Shown: piece by piece, positions 1,858 through 10,846 of the stretch
How the letters are laid out: each line of letters begins with the position of its first letter
Numbering within the stretch: the first letter of the stretch is position 1
Source: a virus
Lineage: Duplodnaviria > Heunggongvirae > Uroviricota > Caudoviricetes
DNA: 10,948 nucleotides
Reading direction: 5' to 3' (one strand)
IMG/VR virus record: IMGVR_UViG_3300039313_000009
Notes under the pieces: model-generated
What the model saw: only the letters and a program-made list of their open reading frames with translations
Database searches by the model: none
What the model was told of the DNA's origin: nothing
Translations under genes and position numbers: made by a program

Positions 1858-1877
1858 CATAGGGCGAAAGCCCTATG
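1858..1877. terminator. Bidirectional hairpin between convergent genes (NTPase fragment and integrase)
   Basis: Perfect 8-bp stem catagggc / gccctatg with gaaa loop, followed by a T-rich tract on the plus strand; it overlaps the integrase stop codon. Confidence 0.55.
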
Positions 1878-3060
1878 ATTTTACTTTTATACCCCACCAT
1901 GACATCAATTCTCTGCGTTGTTCTAAATAAATAGAACGATTATACGCCCGCCGTACTTCATTTTTATCTATATGCGCTAAAGCTGATTCTATAATATCGG
2001 AATTAAAACCAGACTCGTTCAACGCTGTGCTAGCTATAGAACGAAGCCCATGAGCAACGAGTTTACCGCCATAACCAATCCTTTTAAGAGCAGCATTAGC
2101 AGTTTGGCTATTCATAGGTTGTTTAGGATCATTCCTGCTGGGAAAAACATGTTCTCGGTGAGCGCTAATTGGCTTCATTACATCCAGAATCTCTAATGCC
2201 TGTGGTGATAAAGGAACAATGTGTTCCCGCTTAGCTTTCATCCGTTCGGCTGGAATAGTCCAGAGCTTCGTATCGAGATCGATCTCTGCCCAACGGGCAC
2301 CAGAGGCCTCAGAAGGGCGCACGAGCGTCAGGAGTTGCCATTCAATGAGACAGCGAGTCGGAACAGACAGATTTGACATGACTAAAGAACGCATCAGCTT
2401 CGGCAATTCTTCTGGCCGCAGCGTCGGCATGTTTTGTTTTTTGGGCTTCTCAAAGGCCATTCCAATACCTGATGCTGGATTGGCATCAATCAGACCAGTG
2501 TTTACGGCATAAATCATTATCTCGTTAATACGCTGCACTAGTCGACGTACAGTCTCAAGCGCTCCACGAGCTTTGATTGGTTCCAATGCTTCAACTAATA
2601 TTCGGGCTTTAATTTGCTGAACGGGGATCTCACCGATGGCAGGGAATACATCTTTCTCCAATGAGCGCCAAATGTCTTTTGCGTAATCAGGGGTAACGCT
2701 TTTACTTTTGAGCTGGAACCAGTTAGCGGCGACCATTGAGAAAATACTGTCCAGAGCGATTTGCTGCTGTTCCTCTGCAACTTCGGCCTGAATTTGTGGG
2801 TCAATTCCGTTGGCTAACAAGGCAAGGTAATCCGCTCTTAACCCTCGGGCGTCAGCAAGTGAAAGGGCGGGGAAAGCACCAAGCCCCATCATTGTCCGCT
2901 GTTTTGTCGCTGGACGTTGATAACGGAAACGCCAGAGCTTTTTCCCGCTGGTTTTCACTATCAGGAAAAGGCCATCGCCATCATGCAGAGTTAGATCCTT
3001 CTCTAACGCTTTAGCGCGAAGAACTTCGGTGTTGGTAAGGGGGCGTGTTGTCCGTGCCAC
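1873..3060 (-). CDS. int: P4-type tyrosine integrase (IntA/CP4-57-like family)
   Basis: 395-aa ORF. N-terminus MARTTRPLT..DGDGLFL..SGKKLWRFRY is typical of P4-like integrases; C-terminus has HGLRS and ALAH..VRRAYNRS motifs consistent with the tyrosine-recombinase active site. It lies about 185 bp downstream of an ssrA 3'-end repeat in the same orientation, as for ssrA/tRNA-associated islands. Confidence 0.9.
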   Translation of the reverse strand: MARTTRPLTNTEVLRAKALEKDLTLHDGDGLFLIVKTSGKKLWRFRYQRPATKQRTMMGLGAFPALSLADARGLRADYLALLANGIDPQIQAEVAEEQQQIALDSIFSMVAANWFQLKSKSVTPDYAKDIWRSLEKDVFPAIGEIPVQQIKARILVEALEPIKARGALETVRRLVQRINEIMIYAVNTGLIDANPASGIGMAFEKPKKQNMPTLRPEELPKLMRSLVMSNLSVPTRCLIEWQLLTLVRPSEASGARWAEIDLDTKLWTIPAERMKAKREHIVPLSPQALEILDVMKPISAHREHVFPSRNDPKQPMNSQTANAALKRIGYGGKLVAHGLRSIASTALNESGFNSDIIESALAHIDKNEVRRAYNRSIYLEQRRELMSWWGIKVKS

Positions 3061-3172: not shown

Positions 3173-3214
3173 ACACAAAAAAGCCCGCAGGGCTTGTGCC
3201 ATGCGGGCTTTCTG
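3173..3214 (-). terminator. Rho-independent terminator on the minus strand (GC hairpin followed by a U-run), between the ssrA-derived repeat and the integrase
   Basis: Plus-strand aagcccgcagggctt (3181..3195) and alternative pairing gcccgca / tgcgggc (3183..3189 with 3202..3208). On the minus strand the hairpin is followed by TTTTTTGTG (complement of 3173..3180). Confidence 0.5.
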
Positions 3215-3245
3215 TACTTCACCGGACGTATCCGGATCATGATTT

Positions 3246-3275
3246 GGTGGAGCTGGCGGGAGTTGAACCCGCGTT
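3246..3275 (-). other. Attachment-site repeat: the 3'-terminal ~30 nt of the tmRNA gene ssrA (T-arm, acceptor 3' strand and CCA), without the rest of the gene
   Basis: The reverse complement of 3246..3275 reads acgcgggttcaactcccgccagctccacca, matching from memory the 3' end of E. coli ssrA. Sequence beyond 3275 shows no tmRNA-like continuation, so this is a partial copy (att direct repeat), not a functional gene. Confidence 0.75.
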
Positions 3276-3330
3276 CTATTAATGGTAAATAACTGTAATT
3301 TATAGCTTTTATTTGAAGTAGATCACATGC

Positions 3331-3402: not shown

Positions 3403-4026
3403 ATGACAATACAGGAAATAATTCAGCAACGTAATATTCGTAGCTTGTTTCATTTTACACATAGCGATAATCTAACTTCCATTTTAGATAATGGCCTTAT
3501 GTCTCGTTCAGAACTTGATAATGAAAATAATGAATATAATTATAATGATGAAGAAAGGATTGATGGTCATCCAGATGCGATTTGTTTGTCCGTAAGTTAC
3601 CCTAATGCAAAAATGTTTTATAAATATAGATGTTTAAAGCCTGGGGGCTGGGTTATATTAGAAATCAATCCATCTGTTCTTTGGGCTAAGGATTGCGCTT
3701 TTTATCCTACCAACGCAGCTTCGAATAACGTTCGTTTTATAAATATTGATTTGATGAAAGGAGCTGAGGCATTTAGTGCTTTGTTTTCAGAGAATGTTTT
3801 TGGGATTCAGAGAGATGTAAACCTTCCAAGTGAGTATACGACGGATGTTCAAGCTGAAATACTGGTATTTGAAAAAATTCCTCCCTCATATATTATAAGC
3901 ACTTTTCACCCTAACAAAGAATCTGCTGAACATTTCAAGAGATTATATCCACAGACAATACAGAGATCTTATGATAATCTTAATGCTAGAACATTTTATT
4001 CTCAGAGGCATTATTATTTAGGATAA
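3403..4026 (+). CDS. darT: DarT-like DNA ADP-ribosyltransferase toxin (DUF4433-type)
   Basis: 207 aa. LFHFTHSDNLTSILDNGL (residues 15-32) parallels the recalled DarT N-terminal motif (for example LFHITHMDNLPSILTSGL); QAEILVF (150-156) parallels the catalytic-glutamate motif; central CAFYPTNAASNNVRF resembles the conserved mid-region. AT-rich codon usage unlike the flanking prophage genes. Confidence 0.7.
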   Translation: MTIQEIIQQRNIRSLFHFTHSDNLTSILDNGLMSRSELDNENNEYNYNDEERIDGHPDAICLSVSYPNAKMFYKYRCLKPGGWVILEINPSVLWAKDCAFYPTNAASNNVRFINIDLMKGAEAFSALFSENVFGIQRDVNLPSEYTTDVQAEILVFEKIPPSYIISTFHPNKESAEHFKRLYPQTIQRSYDNLNARTFYSQRHYYLG

Positions 4027-4029
4027 GTT

Positions 4030-4719
4030 ATGGCCGTTAGACCTGTTTTCGTCCCTACAAACGCAGGGAACTTACTATCGATCACGAAGGATGTGGATTT
4101 TCCTTGGGCTCCTGGTATGTCTAAAACGCAAAAGCAAAAATCGATCAGGGCGTTACATACAGCAGCGAATGAGCAGGGATTGAACTCTTTGTTGGAAATT
4201 TCTAGTAAATCCGAAGATGCGCTGGGGGTAGCACTTAGTGCATTTAATCTAAGAATAAAGACGAAAAGACTTGGGAAAGAGTTTACAGTTGAATCTGCAT
4301 TTCAAGCAAGTAAAGTATTTGAAATGGGAGGACCATATGTCGATATCTTAGATAAAAGCTCGATAGAAGCAAAAAAAGATATGAGATTAAAGGAATCTGG
4401 GGGATTAGTTAACTTCAAATTTTATAATACAATATGGCCCATTGTCCCCAGGACTGCTTTTTATGATTGGTTATATTTGAGTGCGCTCAATCAAAACAAA
4501 AATCTAGCACTCCATCTATTAAATTTTGATGGATTTACTGATATTGAATTTAATCCAGCGAAATCTATTAATTGCCAAGCCAGAGCAGCTGCACTTTTTG
4601 TCTCTTTAGTAAGACGAAATATGTTAGATGATGTTTTATCTTCAAAGGATGGTTTTTTATCAAAATTAGCATCTCATTATGGTGTTGAAAATTATTCTAT
4701 TCAACATACATTGATATGA
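4030..4719 (+). CDS. Operon partner of the DarT-like gene: NADAR-like (YbiA/DUF1768-type) candidate ADP-ribosyl hydrolase antitoxin; no macrodomain signature
   Basis: 229 aa. Translationally coupled (3-nt gap, AGGA Shine-Dalgarno overlapping the upstream stop). LSAF..KEFTVESAFQASKVF aligns by eye with the YbiA motif FSNF..WPTSEHYFQAQKF, followed by SSIEAKKDM versus SSPMVAARM and a W...L..LL region. No DarG-like glycine-rich macrodomain motifs are visible. Confidence 0.5.
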   Translation: MAVRPVFVPTNAGNLLSITKDVDFPWAPGMSKTQKQKSIRALHTAANEQGLNSLLEISSKSEDALGVALSAFNLRIKTKRLGKEFTVESAFQASKVFEMGGPYVDILDKSSIEAKKDMRLKESGGLVNFKFYNTIWPIVPRTAFYDWLYLSALNQNKNLALHLLNFDGFTDIEFNPAKSINCQARAAALFVSLVRRNMLDDVLSSKDGFLSKLASHYGVENYSIQHTLI

Positions 4720-4751: not shown

Positions 4752-5921
4752 TTAATATCTATTTTTTCTATTTAAAGATGTATTTCCATCATATTCTTTG
4801 AGGTATGAGCCATAATGTCTAAATAACATCTCTGGTCCTTTATGACCCATTTGAACCGCAAGCCAAAACAGGTTTGCTCCCCGGCTGATATGGCTGGTGG
4901 CGAATGTATGTCTGGTTTGATATGGGTTTCTGTAACGAATACCTGCTTTCCGCAATGTTGGCACCCATGCTTTTTTTCTAATTGCATCAGCACTTGCCCA
5001 AGGCTTATTGGTCTTTGGATCTTCAAAGACTGTAGCATCCTTCATGAATGTAAATGGCTTCTGATTTATCAGCGCCAACATTGCATCTTCTGTCAGTTCA
5101 ACTTTACGAGTACCGGCTTTTGTCTTTGTTCCTTTGATAACACCGACAACACTTGCGCTCTGGACATGGGCAGTTTTTCCAACAAAGTCGATATCACGCC
5201 ATCGAAGGGCACATAATTCAGAACTACGCAGGCCTGTATGTATAGCGAACCGGAACAGATTCTCCCATTGTTTGTTTCCGGCTGCTGCTAGTAATGCATC
5301 AACTTCTGCTGGTGATAGCGGATCAACCACGTAGCTGCTTTCTGCTTCTGACTTATCACTTTGGTAGCGCGAAGCAGTTACCAACGATACGGGGTTAATT
5401 TGAAGTACCCCATCGGTTACGGCTTCATCAAGTGCTGACCGCAGGAAAGATAACTGGTTGCGAATTGTTTTTAAGGTCGTTTTCTGGCTTTGAATCCACG
5501 CTTTCAGGATTGCTGGTGTTAATTCACTTGCAGGGCAAATGTGGAGTGAGGCTAACGCACTACGGCATTTTTTATAACCACCAATCGTAGATGGTGAAAG
5601 TTTTCTCGTTTCGCAGATTTCAAGGTATTCGTCCAGGTACATTTTTACCGTTTTGCCTGCAGCAGCATTACCAAAAATTTTCAAACGAGCAGAACGGGGA
5701 AAATATTCCGCATAAATGAATGTTCCCCTTTCGATCTTATTATGAATTTCGCCGAGTGTGCGCTCGGCGTATTTAATGTTCTTTGGTGTTACTTCCAGAT
5801 TGGAAAGAGGCTCACGACATCTAACTCCTTTGTAGGTGAAAGTTATATTGATCGTTTCGCCCTGGCGGTGTTTCCTGATTGTTACGCCGCGCGGTAGTTT
5901 GAGCAGTTTTGTCTGGCCCAT
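4752..5921 (-). CDS. int: Lambdoid-type tyrosine integrase with an N-terminal arm-binding domain
   Basis: 389 aa. C-terminal motifs TRHTFAT, MGH and FRHYGSYL fit the R-H-R-Y tyrosine-recombinase active site. The N-terminus (KLPRGVTIRKH..ITFTYKGVRCRE) is arm-binding-like. GAGG Shine-Dalgarno 8 nt upstream; its 5' end overlaps the xis-like gene. Confidence 0.9.
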   Translation of the reverse strand: MGQTKLLKLPRGVTIRKHRQGETINITFTYKGVRCREPLSNLEVTPKNIKYAERTLGEIHNKIERGTFIYAEYFPRSARLKIFGNAAAGKTVKMYLDEYLEICETRKLSPSTIGGYKKCRSALASLHICPASELTPAILKAWIQSQKTTLKTIRNQLSFLRSALDEAVTDGVLQINPVSLVTASRYQSDKSEAESSYVVDPLSPAEVDALLAAAGNKQWENLFRFAIHTGLRSSELCALRWRDIDFVGKTAHVQSASVVGVIKGTKTKAGTRKVELTEDAMLALINQKPFTFMKDATVFEDPKTNKPWASADAIRKKAWVPTLRKAGIRYRNPYQTRHTFATSHISRGANLFWLAVQMGHKGPEMLFRHYGSYLKEYDGNTSLNRKNRY

Positions 5922-8267: not shown

Positions 8268-8630
8268 TTAACGACCTGCTGCGCGGAGTTTTCCGTCAGG
8301 TTCACCGGCAAGAGTCAGTAATTGTCCCTGGTCTTCCTGCAGAATAGTCAGGCGACCACCGCGATTGACATACATCGGCGTTTCGGTGGTGTCTTCTTCG
8401 GAAATTTTCCCGCGGTTAGTTGGGCGAACATATGAGAGTTTGTGTTTGATTTTCACACGGTTCTCATCAAACGGTTCGATTTCCAGATTGAGTGAGACCT
8501 TCCCTTTGGTTTTCGTGTTCATCACACCGGAAGCGACCTCACTGAGAACTGCGCCGATTTTGGTTTCAAATACGCCGCCGTCCAGCTCCCCGATAAATGC
8601 CTGCACATCAGTACTGCGTTCGCTAGCCAT
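8268..8630 (-). CDS. yfdP: yfdP-like lambdoid prophage protein (120 aa); start reassigned to ATG 8630
   Basis: 120 aa from MASERSTDVQ. GAGGAG Shine-Dalgarno about 8 nt upstream of ATG 8630. The longer track ORF (to 8795) runs into the GC-rich block and is low-complexity. Confidence 0.5.
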   Translation of the reverse strand: MASERSTDVQAFIGELDGGVFETKIGAVLSEVASGVMNTKTKGKVSLNLEIEPFDENRVKIKHKLSYVRPTNRGKISEEDTTETPMYVNRGGRLTILQEDQGQLLTLAGEPDGKLRAAGR

Positions 8631-8650
8631 TTTGCTGCTCCTCATCATAT

Positions 8651-8900
8651 CGACCCTGCAAGGTCGGTTGGTTTCTCCACAAAACAGAGAAGAACACCTG
8701 CGGTGGCAGCCGCCCGGATGGATTGGGTTATGAGCCCGTCGTCCGGTGATGCTCTTCTCTGTTTTGCAAAAAAGGACGGTACCAGCCGGAAGCAAGGGTA
8801 CAAACTGGTACCGCCAGGACTACACACAGCATAAAGTTGTGGTGCCGGGTGCCTCCCGGTGCCTGGCGAAGGTTGCACACCAGGCGGGTGGGTATCCACA
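8651..8900. other. GC-rich, hairpin-dense non-coding block (candidate structured RNA, recombination site or gene remnant) in the divergent intergenic region
   Basis: 14-bp long-range inverted repeat caaaacagagaaga (8680..8693) / tcttctctgttttg (8754..8767) enclosing about 60 nt; hairpins cgacc..ggtcg (8651..8666), ccggg-tgcct-cccgg (8845..8859) and gcctgg-N13-ccaggc (8861..8885); GGTACC repeated at 8779 and 8807. Overlapping ORFs here are Pro/Gly/Arg-rich and look spurious. Confidence 0.35.
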
Positions 8901-9040
8901 GAAGGTCGACTGTCAGCCTCAACCTTAACCCGCGTGCGCTGAGCCGCATTCACCACAACGCTAAGGATTCTCTCTGGTTGAAAATACTTAGCTGTTATGT
9001 GCCTGCTTTTAGCCACATCAGGCGAGGTGGACCTGGTTAT

Positions 9041-9086
9041 TCCCCAACAACAAGGATTCGGTTAATCTGGATATCCCCAACAACAA
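9041..9086 (+). promoter_or_regulatory. Two perfect 13-bp direct repeats tccccaacaacaa upstream of the zinc-ribbon gene; candidate operator or iteron sites
   Basis: Copies at 9041..9053 and 9074..9086, ending 15 bp before the GTG at 9101. Confidence 0.4.
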
Positions 9087-9100
9087 TAAGAGTATTCAAT

Positions 9101-9616
9101 GTGATCGCTGAATTAACGGCAGCAATGACGGCTATTCGTGAAACAGCCCAGATTGCAAAACTAATGAACGAGGCAAAAACTCAAGCTGAAGTAAATGCGG
9201 CTATTGGTGAGCTGAACTCAAAGCTTGCGTCTATTCAGCGCGAATGCGTGTCTCTCGTTGAACTGGTGGGCTCTTATCAAGAAATAAATGCTTCTCTCAA
9301 AGCTAAAATTGCAGAATTCGAAAACTTTGAGGCTCAGACGGAAGGCTATATCCTTAACCAACTTGAGTCGGGTACTTTTGTATACTCGAAGGAGGTAATC
9401 GTGAACGGTGGCAGCATAACCATGCATCTTTGCCCAAAATGTTTTGGACAAAAGATAGTATCGATACTTCAACCATTCCCGGTTAGCGAAGATGAGCTTT
9501 TTCATAAAAGCAGGTGCCTCCACTGTGAAAATAAGTTTCTGATGAATAAAAATCCGGATTACGTATCGCCTCCATCCATTGAGGAGTTGTCCAGAAAACT
9601 TAACGGCAATCTGTAG
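9101..9616 (+). CDS. Hypothetical coiled-coil protein with a C-terminal CxxC..CxxC zinc-ribbon (about 164-171 aa); the start may instead be ATG 9125
   Basis: Open frame with GTG 9101 (AAGAG 8 nt upstream) and ATG 9125. N-terminal heptad-like, Ala/Glu/Lys-rich segment; C-terminal HLCPKCFGQ..SRCLHCENKF. Followed by a terminator. The 5' part of the track ORF (8837..9100) lies in the GC-rich block and is rejected. Confidence 0.45.
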   Translation: MIAELTAAMTAIRETAQIAKLMNEAKTQAEVNAAIGELNSKLASIQRECVSLVELVGSYQEINASLKAKIAEFENFEAQTEGYILNQLESGTFVYSKEVIVNGGSITMHLCPKCFGQKIVSILQPFPVSEDELFHKSRCLHCENKFLMNKNPDYVSPPSIEELSRKLNGNL

Positions 9617-9678: not shown

Positions 9679-9763
9679 GTTGCTAACGAATCATCCGGTC
9701 ATTCATACGCCACCGGCGGCTACTTCGTGGGCGTCCTGCCTGTCCGTGATAGCTTACATTATG

Positions 9764-9815
9764 TTGCTACTTAAAGTAGCAAAAATCAACAACAAAAAGT
9801 AGATATTTGTTGTTG
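9764..9815. promoter_or_regulatory. Pair of palindromes in an AT-rich non-coding region; candidate protein-binding, centromere-like or origin-like sites
   Basis: 19-bp perfect palindrome ttgctactt-a-aagtagcaa (9764..9782) and caacaacaaa-N9-tttgttgttg (9787..9815); the CAACAACAA motif is shared with the repeats at 9041..9086. Confidence 0.35.
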
Positions 9816-9960
9816 TCTATGATTTTTCTATAATTAATTGAAAGTTAAATGTTTTTGCTGATTTACTATGCTGTAAACTGAAAATATCGCACGAAGTTGG
9901 AGTAGGTATTGAGCATAGTGAATTATGAGGAGGGAGTTTTTTATGAGATTAATCAGGGAG

Positions 9961-10000: not shown

Positions 10001-10846
10001 TTACTTTGTAAGTTCTAGAACTCGTTGAGCCAGCCCTTTAAATTGTTCGTTAAAGGCGTCTCTGCTTGATTTCATTGTATTTAAGGCATGCCCAAATTGC
10101 CCTGAATCGCGAATTTGCTGATCACTGATGGAGAAAACAGGTGTCGCTAGTTGTTGGCTTATTGCGATTAATGAGTTGAAATCGGAAATATGCGCAAGAT
10201 CATAGGCTGATAAATCTCCACTGACTGTTGTTTTGTTAATTGCATGTTGCACTTTATCTCGTGGAATTATGCAGGTAATTTTTTCTAGATTTGGCACTAA
10301 GATCGAATCAACAGCATCACGGATAGCTGCCATCCATTTTTCGAAAGATTTTACAGGTGCTCCTTTACGCGGCCTGTATCTCTGCTGAATCATACCTAGA
10401 AACTGCGGTGCATTTTTAATTGATTGTGAAGAGTTACCATCATTATTTTCTTTAAATAATGCTAATTCTTTGTGCCAGCGAGGTATATTTTTTGAGAGAG
10501 AGCGAATTGCTTGCCAGCAAAAAAAGTCTGGAGCTACAGGTACGATAAAATAGTCACTTGACATGAGAACTACTTCATTTAAACCTCCAACATTAGGGCT
10601 GAGATCATAAAGAATGTAATCAATATTATTCTTCATGGCGATTAGCTGTAATATTTTTGGCAGGTTCCCTGGTATATTTCTTGTAGCAGGAATACCAGCA
10701 GCAATTTTTAGAGAAACACTTATCTGTGAATCTAAGTCCGAAACATCTAAATGTCCGGGAAGAAGCAGAAGGTTTTCATGCAGTGTAGGGTGTAATTTTC
10801 CCGTTTCTTTTTCAAGGTATGCTTCAGGTTGTCCGCCATTAATCAA
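10001..10846 (-). CDS. ParA/MinD/Soj-superfamily ATPase, 5'-truncated fragment (IS5-disrupted; frame open to 10873; deviant Walker A missing)
   Basis: The segment DYILYDLSPNVGGLNEVVLMSSDYFIVPVAPDFF matches the ParA core (hydrophobic strand, Asp, then ...P...S/T...AL..AD..hhP). The track start is a TTG and the frame continues open into the IS5 junction; no KGGxGKT P-loop is present. Confidence 0.65.
   Translation of the reverse strand: MINGGQPEAYLEKETGKLHPTLHENLLLLPGHLDVSDLDSQISVSLKIAAGIPATRNIPGNLPKILQLIAMKNNIDYILYDLSPNVGGLNEVVLMSSDYFIVPVAPDFFCWQAIRSLSKNIPRWHKELALFKENNDGNSSQSIKNAPQFLGMIQQRYRPRKGAPVKSFEKWMAAIRDAVDSILVPNLEKITCIIPRDKVQHAINKTTVSGDLSAYDLAHISDFNSLIAISQQLATPVFSISDQQIRDSGQFGHALNTMKSSRDAFNEQFKGLAQRVLELTK

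What the first reader, a model, noticed from the sequence alone, without database searches (positions are those of the whole stretch)
8651..8900. GC-rich hairpin-dense block between divergent genes
About 250 bp of distinctly GC-rich DNA with a 14-bp long-range inverted repeat enclosing nested stem-loops and several further GC hairpins. The translations across it are low-complexity, so it is more likely a structured RNA, recombination site or decayed gene than a coding region.
Basis: seen in the sequence. Interest (0 to 1): 0.5.

Follow-up and report, generated by a model that had tools for sequence, protein, structure and literature searches.

The report
Prophage small RNA plus leader hairpin
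The GC-rich block is a non-coding stretch in front of a prophage's leftward early genes, holding the end of a ~193-nt structured small RNA with its terminator and then a long conserved hairpin; relatives of this RNA (sRNA-17, STnc100/PasD) are already described, so it is real but mostly ordinary.

Summary
Positions 8651-8900 are GC-rich and fold far better than shuffles, and the helices are kept by compensatory changes in related phages.

The RNA sense is the minus strand. The block holds parts of two units.
- **Small RNA (predicted 8960->8768, 193 nt).** It is a multi-helix domain closed by GUUGUGGUG/CACCACAAC and ends in a 13-bp intrinsic terminator with a U6 tract. It is the alternative allele of sRNA-17 of E. 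coli K1 RS218, which was mapped by RACE and Northern at the same locus upstream of yfdP. It is also a sub-threshold relative of Rfam STnc100 (40.3 bits against a cut-off of 47).
- **Leader of the yfdP-like gene.** A Y-shaped hairpin (8772->8674) and a small hairpin lie in front of the first gene of the yfdP-to-integrase operon of an SfV/ST64B/mEp460-like prophage.

My most likely mechanism is that leftward transcripts fold into the domain and mostly stop at the terminator. That would release the small RNA and keep the operon silent. Read-through transcripts would carry the hairpins as their 5' UTR.

I found no support for a decayed gene, a nut or put antitermination site, or a tRNA. The promoter and the function of the Y hairpin remain unknown.

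Novelty is modest: a new member of a known kind. The family proved broad and modular, with apparent copies in phages lambda, P1 and Pseudomonas PMG1.

The parts
8954..8999 (-). Upstream hairpin P0a. Arms GCUAAGUAUUUUC/GAGAAUCCUUAGC, extended by CAUAAC (8999-8994) pairing with GUUGUG (8959-8954). It competes with helix P1 for the GUUGUG strand.
   Evidence: Inverted repeat I3. MFE of the long transcript. Isolated fold -14.7 kcal/mol, z = -4.0. The equivalent hairpin GGUAAGAGCA/UGCUCUUUCC in lambda, P1 and IMG/VR loci has different sequences but keeps the pairing.
8836..8960 (-). Structured domain of the predicted small RNA. P1 is GUUGUGGUG (8959-8951) with CACCACAAC (8844-8836). It contains internal hairpins and the invariant hairpin CCGGGAGGCACCCGG (8859-8845).
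   Evidence: Rfam STnc100 full-length match 8989->8766, 40.3 bits, E = 4.7e-6. RNAalifold on 16 variants gives 24 pairs, 6 with both-side changes, in P1 and in GCGGGU/ACCCGC. Isolated fold -56.9 kcal/mol. The 5' 16 nt are identical to the RACE-mapped 5' end of sRNA-17.
8816..8835 (-). Single-stranded spacer UUUAUGCUGUGUGUAGUCCU between P1 and the terminator. This is a possible seed or Hfq-binding stretch, which is inference only.
   Evidence: Unpaired in the folds. The motif GCUGUGUGUAGUC recurs in ST64B and other loci. It differs in the sRNA-17 allele.
8768..8815 (-). Intrinsic terminator: 13-bp stem (8815-8803 with 8787-8775) followed by U6 (8773-8768). This is the predicted 3' end of the small RNA.
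   Evidence: Fold -20.5 kcal/mol, z = -3.4. The stem in ST64B has a different sequence but is fully complementary (GUCGGCGUC/GACGCCGAC), followed by U5. It matches the 3' end of sRNA-17 given by the authors' full-length primer. 111 of 173 family instances have a terminator-like site within 170 nt, against 78 of 600 random windows.
8674..8772 (-). Y-shaped leader hairpin (P0b). The base stem of about 24 bp is CAAAACAGAGAAGAGCAUCACCGG/CCGCAGGUGUUCUUCUCUGUUUUG. Apical hairpin 1 carries GGG-CUCAUAA-CCC (8737-8725). Apical hairpin 2 is variable. The tail is UGUGGAGAAAC.
   Evidence: Inverted repeat I1. Fold -50.0 kcal/mol, z = -7.15. 37 pairs, 10 with compensatory changes in 16 variants. Nearly always directly preceded by a terminator U-tract in 68 unique variants.
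8651..8666 (-). Small hairpin just 5' of the Shine-Dalgarno sequence.
   Evidence: Fold -8.5 kcal/mol, not significant on its own (z = -1.4). ST64B and L228 have a different sequence that can also form a hairpin at the same place.
8268..8643 (-). Shine-Dalgarno GAGGAG (8643-8638) and the yfdP-like CDS (ATG 8630 to stop 8268), first gene of the leftward operon yfdP-yfdQ-yfdR-yfdS/T-like-integrase.
   Evidence: Sequence. RefSeq annotation of an identical locus. phrog_204. Pfam hits for the downstream genes.

Best explanation
The block is non-coding and works as RNA read from the minus strand. It belongs to the leader of the leftward early operon (yfdP-like gene to integrase) of an SfV/ST64B/mEp460-type lambdoid prophage.

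Leftward transcripts first fold into a multi-helix domain (8960->8836). They then meet a strong intrinsic terminator (8815->8768). Most stop there, which yields a discrete small RNA of about 193 nt. This RNA is the alternative allele of the experimentally mapped sRNA-17 and a divergent member of the STnc100/PasD group. Stopping there also keeps the yfdP-to-int operon silent in the lysogen. The minority of transcripts that read through carry the Y-shaped hairpin (8772->8674) and a small hairpin as the 5' UTR of yfdP.

Shown here: the structures, their covariation, the strand, the terminator architecture, the homology, and the locus identity with sRNA-17.

Taken from the literature on the sister allele: a 193-nt RNA exists and yfdP is essentially off in wild type.

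Inferred: that this allele is expressed the same way; that the terminator acts as the gate; and that the Y hairpin acts on processing, stability or translation of the read-through mRNA.
For: - **Structure above chance, and stronger on the minus strand.** Shown.
- **Covariation.** Compensatory changes support P1/P3 of the domain and the Y hairpin. The U-tract and the G-U pairs fit only the minus strand.
- **Rfam.** STnc100 aligns over the full model at E = 4.7e-6. SfV, ST64B and P1 copies score similarly.
- **Functional phages.** The region is 95-100% identical in functional phages, including PhiR49_1, SfV, SfIV and SfII. It always lies upstream of the yfdP homologue.
- **sRNA-17 (PMC7719688).** RACE and Northern define a 193-nt RNA. 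The authors' primers place it from CGTTGTGGTGAATGCG... to ...GGTACCGCTCTTTT in the mEp460-type allele of this locus. The window allele shares the first 16 nt, the P1 3' arm and the terminator, and is predicted at 193 nt.
- **yfdP silent in wild type.** In that paper yfdP had 0.49 reads in wild type and 47 after the sRNA body was replaced by a cat cassette. yfdR also rose.
- **Terminator linkage.** Family members are followed by terminators far more often than random sequence.
Against: - **No expression data.** There are none for this allele.
- **No promoter found.** No sigma-70-like promoter lies upstream on the minus strand. The upstream sequence differs from the sRNA-17 allele. A plus-strand gene (9101-9616) sits between the block and the nearest candidate leftward promoter region near 9760. 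So the origin of the transcript is unknown.
- **Below the Rfam cut-off.** The match scores 40.3 against the curated 47.
- **Ambiguous yfdP result.** The increase in the published mutant may simply be read-through from the inserted cat cassette.
- **No read-through mechanism.** Nothing here shows how RNA polymerase passes the terminator during induction.
- **Y hairpin untested.** Its function has not been examined.
Confidence: 0.65

Rival explanations
1. The region is mainly a cis-acting leader module rather than a small-RNA gene. The structured domain and the P0-type hairpins would control passage of RNA polymerase or processing of the operon transcript. Examples are an RNA antiterminator acting like HK022 put, an RNase III or RNase P processing site, or a switch using the mutually exclusive pairings of GUUGUG with the upstream CAUAAC or the downstream CACAAC. 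The 193-nt RNA would then be a by-product.
For: - Modules of this family lie inside operons without obvious promoters. Examples are the lambda late leader after tR', the P1 ban-operon leader between tRNAs and tciA, and the PMG1 late region upstream of a tRNA and the holins.
- They occur in tandem.
- In the P1 module both the upstream and the downstream partner of the GUUGCG strand changed with it.
- The full-length MFE forms P0a rather than P1, while the RNA starting at 8960 forms P1.
- The Y hairpin has about 24 bp of near-perfect duplex, which is long enough for RNase III (established knowledge, not tested here).
Against: - No similarity to HK022 put, and no boxA, boxB or ops.
- The boxA-like TGCUCUUUCC of relatives is one strand of a covarying helix.
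- The sister allele accumulates as a discrete terminated RNA in a lysogen.
- In lambda the copy lies after tR', where Q already provides antitermination.
- No assay of processing or antitermination is available.
Confidence: 0.18
2. The hairpins are tRNA-like mimics. The GGG-CUCAUAA-CCC hairpin of the Y element would copy the anticodon arm of initiator tRNA-fMet. It could bind a partner that reads that arm, such as the 30S P site with IF3, MetRS, or an anticodon nuclease as a decoy. Alternatively, P1 plus the adjacent CCGGG hairpin would mimic an acceptor/T-arm minihelix that RNase P cuts to make the 5' end.
For: - The Y hairpin shares 14 nt with E. coli metY (CGGGCTCATAACCC).
- The motif GGG-NUCAUAN-CCC-AAUC recurs at the tip of P0-type hairpins in other scaffolds, including P1, L129, L008, L020 and L039.
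- One P1 module carries a true T-arm sequence, GGGUUCGAAUCCC.
- The 3' strand of the hairpin runs straight into the 3' strand of P1, as in tRNA, and the mapped 5' end of sRNA-17 lies at the base of P1.
- P1/P7 C4 RNA and P4 CI RNA are known RNase P substrates (my knowledge; not tested here).
Against: - ARAGORN finds no tRNA.
- Natural variants have CUCAUUA or CUCAUUC, with a pyrimidine at the position of purine 37.
- With the stem constraint and all tRNAs considered, a match of this size is not clearly beyond chance (my estimate).
- P1 plus the hairpin is 14 bp, not the 12 bp of a tRNA minihelix.
- No binding or cleavage data exist.
Confidence: 0.07
3. It is a decayed protein-coding gene, as the RefSeq pipeline suggests.
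For: PGAP annotates a frameshifted 'hypothetical protein' at window 8645-8956 on the minus strand. ORF translations hit PHROG families of unknown function: phrog_33599 at E = 4e-15 and phrog_3651 at E = 1e-30.
Against: - The ORFs differ in strand, position and length among window, mEp460 and ST64B.
- Relatives differ by 1-nt and 20-nt indels.
- Substitutions are compensatory in RNA helices.
- No Pfam search was run on these ORFs; the only family evidence is the PHROG hits above. Those hits are to families of unknown function and are most simply translations of the same conserved DNA annotated in other phages.
Confidence: 0.03
4. It is a DNA-level site: a recombination linker between phage modules, or an operator or attachment-type sequence.
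For: Allele boundaries fall at the conserved flanks, the first 16 nt and the terminator, so interiors are exchanged as cassettes. TCCCCAACAACAA repeats lie nearby at 9041 and 9074.
Against: Conservation follows base pairing, including G-U pairs that would be mismatches on the other strand. The integrase and the att remnant are more than 3 kb away. The repeats lie outside the block.
Confidence: 0.04

Closest known systems
sRNA-17 of E. coli K1 RS218 (Front Microbiol 2020, PMC7719688)
   Same: It occupies the same locus, immediately upstream of yfdP in an mEp460/SfV-type prophage. It has the same first 16 nt (CGUUGUGGUGAAUGCG), the same closing strand CACCACAAC, and nearly the same terminator. 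Its length (193 nt) equals the predicted length here.
   Different: The interior of about 110 nt is a different cassette, with only 117 of 204 aligned columns identical overall. The spacer before the terminator differs. The upstream sequence containing the reported ArcA-bound promoter is not present here. Rfam STnc100 detects the window allele but not the sRNA-17 allele. The original authors reported no Rfam homologue.
Rfam RF02076 STnc100, with PasD said to share its ancestry (bioRxiv 10.64898/2026.05.13.724894)
   Same: It is a prophage-borne RNA of about 200 nt. It has a closing helix next to GGUGAAU, several internal hairpins, the invariant CACCGGGAGGCACCCGGCACC hairpin, and a 3' intrinsic terminator. 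The full model aligns.
   Different: The score of 40.3 bits is below the curated 47. The classical members begin GCAUGGUGAAUCCCCC. They lie in the late region near Q, stx, esterase and lysis genes. The window copy lies in the early-left leader, is preceded by a P0 hairpin, and has another interior.
Promoter-proximal terminated leader RNAs of lambdoid phages (lambda 6S RNA ending at tR'; lambda pL leader with tL terminators)
   Same: A short structured RNA ends at an intrinsic terminator in front of a phage operon that must stay silent in the lysogen. This is established lambda biology. A degenerate copy of the module lies just after lambda tR'.
   Different: No Q-binding or pause element, N, nut, boxA or boxB could be identified here. 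Whether any antiterminator acts at this terminator is unknown.
HK022 put antiterminator RNA
   Same: Both are structured RNAs in an early leader of a lambdoid phage that has no recognisable N/nut system. This is a resemblance in setting only.
   Different: There is no sequence similarity to the HK022 pL-nun region. put is about 70 nt with two stem-loops (PMC9378689). This element is a multi-branch domain of about 125 nt plus a terminator.

Membership tests
Rfam RF02076 STnc100 | Covariance-model score at or above the curated gathering score (47 bits) | tested here: not met
   40.3 bits, E = 4.7e-6, model positions 1-206 of 206, window 8989->8766 minus strand.
Rfam RF02076 STnc100 | Closing helix next to GGUGAAU, the 3' hairpin CCGGGAGGCACCCGG, and a terminal stem-loop with a U-tract | tested here: met
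   Alignment to the model; folds; covariation of the closing helix.
Rfam RF02076 STnc100 | Accumulates as a discrete small RNA | not testable with these tools
   No expression data for this allele. It has been shown only for the sister allele sRNA-17.
sRNA-17 (E. coli K1) | Located directly upstream of yfdP in an mEp460/SfV-like prophage, on the same strand as yfdP | tested here: met
   Alignment of window, SfV, ST64B and mEp460; annotations; the authors' primers match the mEp460 sequence.
sRNA-17 (E. coli K1) | Same 5' end sequence and same terminator/3' end | tested here: met
   The first 16 nt are identical, and the terminator arm and loop are nearly identical. Predicted length is 193 nt against 193 nt.
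sRNA-17 (E. coli K1) | Sequence identity over the body of the RNA | tested here: not met
   The interior is not alignable; 117 of 204 columns are identical overall, nearly all at the two ends.
sRNA-17 (E. coli K1) | ArcA-bound promoter fragment directly upstream | tested here: not met
   The upstream sequence differs from mEp460/RS218 beyond about 10 nt. No sigma-70-like site was found on the minus strand.
Intrinsic (Rho-independent) terminator | G+C-rich stem immediately followed by a U-tract on the transcribed strand, kept in relatives | tested here: met
   13-bp stem, -20.5 kcal/mol, U6. ST64B has a different but fully complementary stem plus U5. The simple scanner missed it because the loop exceeds 8 nt.
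HK022 put RNA | Sequence or structure similarity to putL/putR (two stem-loops, about 70 nt) | tested here: not met
   Only chance 8-14-mers against HK022 22-32 kb. The architecture is different.
Lambda-type nut site or RfaH ops | Single-stranded boxA (CGCUCUUA/UGCUCUUU) followed by a boxB hairpin, or ops GGCGGUAG | tested here: not met
   No match in the window RNA. The boxA-like strand of relatives is paired in a covarying hairpin.
tRNA / tRNA-like | Cloverleaf recognised by a tRNA finder | tested here: not met
   ARAGORN finds 0 genes. There is only a 14-nt identity to the metY anticodon arm.
Protein-coding gene (intact or decayed) | An ORF conserved in frame among relatives | tested here: not met
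   ORFs differ among window, mEp460 and ST64B. Indels are not multiples of three. The PHROG hits are to families of unknown function.

The most novel reading that the evidence does not exclude
The block would be one instance of a widespread, modular phage RNA system. The repeating unit is a long P0 hairpin, then a domain closed by GUUGUGGUG/CACCACAAC (or a covarying equivalent), often followed by a terminator. Apparent units occur singly or in tandem in the leaders of phage operons, including the lambda late leader, the P1 ban operon, Stx-phage late regions and Pseudomonas D3-like phages. In this reading the system works in cis as an RNA gate or processing punctuation for phage transcripts. 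It might use the mutually exclusive CACAAC/GUUGUG pairings and tRNA-like hairpin tips such as the initiator-tRNA-like GGG-CUCAUAA-CCC. It would not be a set of unrelated trans-acting small RNAs.
Probability: 0.15. Interest if true: 0.75.

Novelty: new member of a known kind. Interest (0 to 1): 0.35.

Why it matters
The element sits in front of the operon that ends in the prophage integrase, and 3008 of 5426 complete E. coli genomes carry a match to it. It therefore bears on how a very common prophage type keeps its early-left genes off, and on which small RNA it contributes to the host.

Practically, the region is mis-annotated as a frameshifted pseudogene or as small hypothetical ORFs in RefSeq and in phage records.

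The analysis also links three literatures that have not been joined: sRNA-17, STnc100 and PasD. It shows that sRNA-17 has an alternative cassette allele. It also suggests that well-studied phages such as lambda and P1 carry unannotated relatives. If the family has a common cis function, that would be a new layer of phage transcript control, but this has not been shown.

Tried and rejected
- **nut site.** The family consensus upstream of the domain (TGCTCTTTCC) looks like rrn/lambda boxA. It turned out to be the 3' arm of a hairpin whose 5' arm (GGTAAGAGCA) covaries, and the window has no boxA at all.
- **HK022 put.** I located the pL-nun interval of HK022 and found no similarity.
- **RfaH ops.** GGCGGTACC in the terminator resembles ops, but it is not conserved in ST64B and does not match GGCGGTAG.
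- **tRNA or tmRNA.** There is none in the block.
- **Own promoter.** No sigma-70-like site was found upstream on the minus strand, here or in mEp460. Hand inspection gave only poor candidates.
- **E. coli K-12 CPS-53 as a reference with expression data.** K-12 lacks the element; only about 25 nt before yfdP are shared.
- **Coding reading.** Rejected as described under the rival explanations.
- **Loop-loop (kissing) pairing.** GGCUGAU and AUCAGC are complementary in the sRNA-17-type alleles, but only one co-varying case (L175) was found and no clear equivalent exists in the window's type. I left this as a lead.
- **Initiator-tRNA anticodon-arm mimicry.** The 14-nt identity is real, but natural variants break the purine-37 rule and the match is not clearly beyond chance.
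- **RS218 genome.** The record was not in the collection, so I used mEp460 and the authors' primers instead.

Full report
**Where the block lies.** The window is from E. coli. The 467-bp interval 8633-9099 is 100% identical in many complete genomes, and 3008 of 5426 genomes hold a match. It is also 95-100% identical in functional temperate phages, including PhiR49_1, SfIV, SfV and SfII, and about 77% identical in Salmonella phage ST64B. To the left, all on the minus strand, lie a yfdP-like gene (ATG 8630), yfdQ (DUF2303), a yfdR-like HD hydrolase, a DUF551 protein, small ORFs and an integrase at 5921-4752. This is the leftward early operon of an SfV/ST64B/mEp460-type lambdoid prophage. To the right a plus-strand gene starts at GTG 9101 (phrog_1244, unknown function).

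**Checking the observation.**
- GC content reaches 0.54-0.595 in 8601-8900.
- The long-range inverted repeat is present: 8680-8703 with 8743-8766, 24 nt, 83% complementary, with a perfect 14-bp run. Further GC hairpins lie nearby.
- The minus-strand RNA 9000->8655 folds at -147.1 kcal/mol (z = -6.27, 0 of 100 shuffles as good). The plus strand reaches only z = -3.0.

The structured region, however, runs on to about 8999 and consists of separate units.

**Strand and anatomy.** Read on the minus strand, the region has five parts.
- **Hairpin P0a (8999->8954).**
- **Multi-helix domain (8960->8836).** It is closed by GUUGUGGUG/CACCACAAC and contains the hairpin CCGGGAGGCACCCGG.
- **Spacer of 20 nt.**
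- **Intrinsic terminator.** A 13-bp stem followed by U6 (8815->8768; -20.5 kcal/mol).
- **Y-shaped hairpin (8772->8674; -50.0 kcal/mol, z = -7.15).** A small hairpin follows, then the Shine-Dalgarno sequence and the ATG of yfdP.

The U-tract follows the stem only on the minus strand.

**Comparative support.**
- An alignment of window, SfV, ST64B and mEp460 shows that the terminator stem of ST64B has a different sequence but is fully complementary. It also shows that the Y hairpin is the most conserved part of the whole interval.
- For 16 variants of the domain gathered from IMG/VR contigs, RNAalifold predicts 24 pairs, 6 of which have changes on both sides. Examples in the closing helix are U-A to C-G and G-C to A-U; an example in an internal helix is GCGGGU/ACCCGC changing to GCGGAA/UUCCGC.
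- For 16 variants of the Y hairpin it predicts 37 pairs, 10 with compensatory changes, plus many G-U pairs that would be mismatches on the other strand.
- These sets were collected with exact-match seeds. The seeded segments themselves therefore say nothing about conservation, and the evidence comes from the unseeded helices.

**Not a gene.** RefSeq annotates a frameshifted hypothetical pseudogene at 8645-8956, and two ORF translations hit PHROG families of unknown function. However, the ORFs across the interval differ in strand, place and length among window, mEp460 and ST64B. The relatives also differ by 1-nt and 20-nt indels. The PHROG hits are most simply translations of the same conserved DNA annotated elsewhere.

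**What it is related to.**
- **Rfam STnc100.** It aligns over its full length to 8989->8766 minus strand, at 40.3 bits and E = 4.7e-6, below the curated 47 bits. SfV, ST64B and one P1 copy behave the same way.
- **STnc100 and PasD in the literature.** STnc100 is a prophage RNA of unknown function. A 2026 preprint argues that it shares ancestry with the Hfq-associated EPEC sRNA PasD and places both in lambdoid late regions. Another paper finds a copy 75 nt downstream of stx2B.
- **sRNA-17.** A literature search for yfdP found sRNA-17 of E. coli K1 RS218 (PMC7719688). It is a 193-nt RNA defined by 5'/3' RACE and Northern in an mEp460-like prophage. The authors' full-length and deletion primers place it from CGTTGTGGTGAATGCGCAGGCTGATG... 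to ...CTGGTACCGCTCTTTT. That is the mEp460 version of the very unit analysed here, directly upstream of the same terminator, Y hairpin and yfdP.
- **How the two alleles compare.** The window allele shares the first 16 nt, the closing strand and the terminator, but has a different interior cassette. Its predicted length, 8960->8768, is also 193 nt.
- **yfdP in that study.** yfdP had 0.49 reads in wild type and 47 after the RNA body was replaced by a cat cassette. yfdR also rose. This fits a silent operon behind a terminator, although read-through from the cassette is an equally simple reading.
- **Other notes.** The authors reported no Rfam homologue. Consistently, RF02076 does not detect their allele but does detect this one. 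E. coli K-12 CPS-53 lacks the element.

**Most likely mechanism.** Leftward transcripts fold into the domain and mostly terminate at 8768. This gives a stable small RNA of about 193 nt and insulates yfdP-to-int. Read-through transcripts carry the Y hairpin and the small hairpin as their 5' UTR.
- Shown here: the structures, strand, covariation, terminator architecture and locus identity.
- Borrowed from the sister allele: the existence of the RNA and the silence of yfdP.
- Inferred: the gate function and any role of the Y hairpin.

**What remains open.**
- I could not find a promoter for this allele.
- The nearest candidate leftward promoter/operator region is near 9760-9820. It is followed by a leader segment nearly identical to the one just downstream of the cI terminator in ST64B. 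A plus-strand gene lies between it and the block.
- In the long transcript GUUGUG pairs with the upstream CAUAAC, forming P0a. In an RNA that starts at 8960 it closes P1. The 5' end may therefore be made by processing, but this is open.

**Rivals considered.**
- **Antitermination signal.** No similarity to HK022 put, and no boxA, boxB or ops. The boxA-like strand in relatives is part of a covarying hairpin.
- **tRNA mimic.** This rests on a 14-nt identity between the tip of the Y hairpin and the anticodon arm of metY. Variants break the purine-37 rule, and ARAGORN finds nothing.
- **Decayed gene or DNA-level site.** Both are unlikely for the reasons above.

**The wider family (a by-product).**
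- The members share conserved ends and highly variable interiors. They fall into at least three 5' types, and some contigs hold 2 to 4 copies.
- Of 173 unique instances, 111 have a terminator-like site within 170 nt downstream, against 78 of 600 random windows.
- By eye, related modules also appear in lambda between tR' and S, as three tandem modules in the P1 ban-operon leader overlapped by the doubtful ORFs plp and upl, and in Pseudomonas phage PMG1 upstream of a tRNA and the holins. Only the third P1 module was scored with a model (RF02076, 33.4 bits). The other copies are eye-level calls, not tested with a dedicated model.

**Verdict.** This is a real, conserved, non-coding RNA region. It is a new allele or member of a known kind (sRNA-17, STnc100/PasD) joined to an uncharacterised leader hairpin. 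Interest is modest for the block itself. It would be higher only if the family proves to have a common cis function.

Noticed in passing
window 3245-3325 (minus) and 3177-3254 (minus): A fragment matching only the 3' end of tmRNA (ssrA), plus its terminator (partial Rfam tmRNA and IsrM hits). It lies between two integrase genes at 1873-3060 and 4752-5921. This looks like an att remnant marking tandem mobile elements at ssrA.
   Followed up: partly
window 3403-4719 (plus): A low-GC DarT (ssDNA ADP-ribosyltransferase) gene followed by a DarT1-associated NADAR antitoxin gene. They sit between the prophage integrase and the ssrA fragment, so they are probably defence or toxin-antitoxin cargo at the prophage end.
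   Followed up: no
window 9041-9053, 9074-9086 and about 9787-9816, 9764-9782: The direct repeat TCCCCAACAACAA occurs twice, just upstream of the plus-strand gene. An inverted repeat CAACAACAAA...TTTGTTGTTG and the palindrome TTGCTACTTTAAGTAGCAA lie next to a CATAAT -10-like hexamer. These may be operators of one repressor and a leftward promoter. The following 55 nt (9743-9687) are nearly identical to the leader after the cI terminator of ST64B.
   Followed up: partly
window 10001-10846 (minus): A ParA-like ATPase ORF (phrog_164) sits where related phages carry cI, so the immunity region of this prophage differs from PhiR49_1, SfV and mEp460.
   Followed up: no
L003 6985-7173, L005 5673-5861, L006 5732-5920: SfV, mEp460 and ST64B each carry isrK followed by a C4 antisense RNA, both above the Rfam cut-offs, in the rightward operon. 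This is a P1/P7-type immI-like module.
   Followed up: no
L204 (lambda) 956-977, 1139-1163, 1201-1260: Lambda appears to carry a degenerate copy of the P0 hairpin and the start of the domain (GTGCTCTTTCCGTTGTGCTGAAT) between tR' and S. The 6S leader itself begins with CGTTGTGGTAGTGAG, and CACAAC follows tR'. This was judged by eye only.
   Followed up: partly
L205 (phage P1) 2186-2890: Three tandem modules of the family lie in the ban-operon leader between tRNA-Thr and tciA. They are overlapped by the opposite-strand ORFs plp and upl, which may therefore be spurious. One P0 tip carries a true T-arm sequence, GGGTTCGAATCCC. RF02076 scores the third module at 33.4 bits.
   Followed up: partly
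L350 (Pseudomonas phage PMG1) 1490-1620: This looks like a family member with a covarying closing helix (GGAGUG/CACUCC). It lies in the late region upstream of a tRNA and the holin genes and is annotated as a hypothetical protein. If so, the family extends beyond enterobacterial phages.
   Followed up: partly
L005 (mEp460, sRNA-17 allele) and IMG/VR loci such as L175: In the sRNA-17-type alleles the loop of the 5' hairpin (GGCUGAU) is complementary to the loop of the 3' hairpin (AUCAGC). L175 has GGCGAU and AUCGCA, a matched one-base deletion. This could be a loop-loop contact, but there is only one covarying case.
   Followed up: partly
window 8725-8737 (minus); L129, L008, L020, L039, L205: The tip of the Y hairpin, GGG-CUCAUAA-CCC, is identical over 14 nt to the anticodon arm of initiator tRNA-fMet (metY). 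The motif GGG-NUCAUAN-CCC-AAUC recurs at the tip of P0-type hairpins in other scaffolds. Variants CUCAUUA and CUCAUUC also exist.
   Followed up: partly
window 8766-8670 compared with 8999-8945: The Y hairpin and its tail (CAAAAC-AG-AGAAGAGCAUC...GUUUUGUGGAGAAAC) resemble the P0 hairpin plus the domain start of full modules (CACAAC-AG-GUAAGAGCAUU...GUUGUGGUGAAUGC). The Y element may be a P0 hairpin followed by the stump of a second, lost domain.
   Followed up: partly
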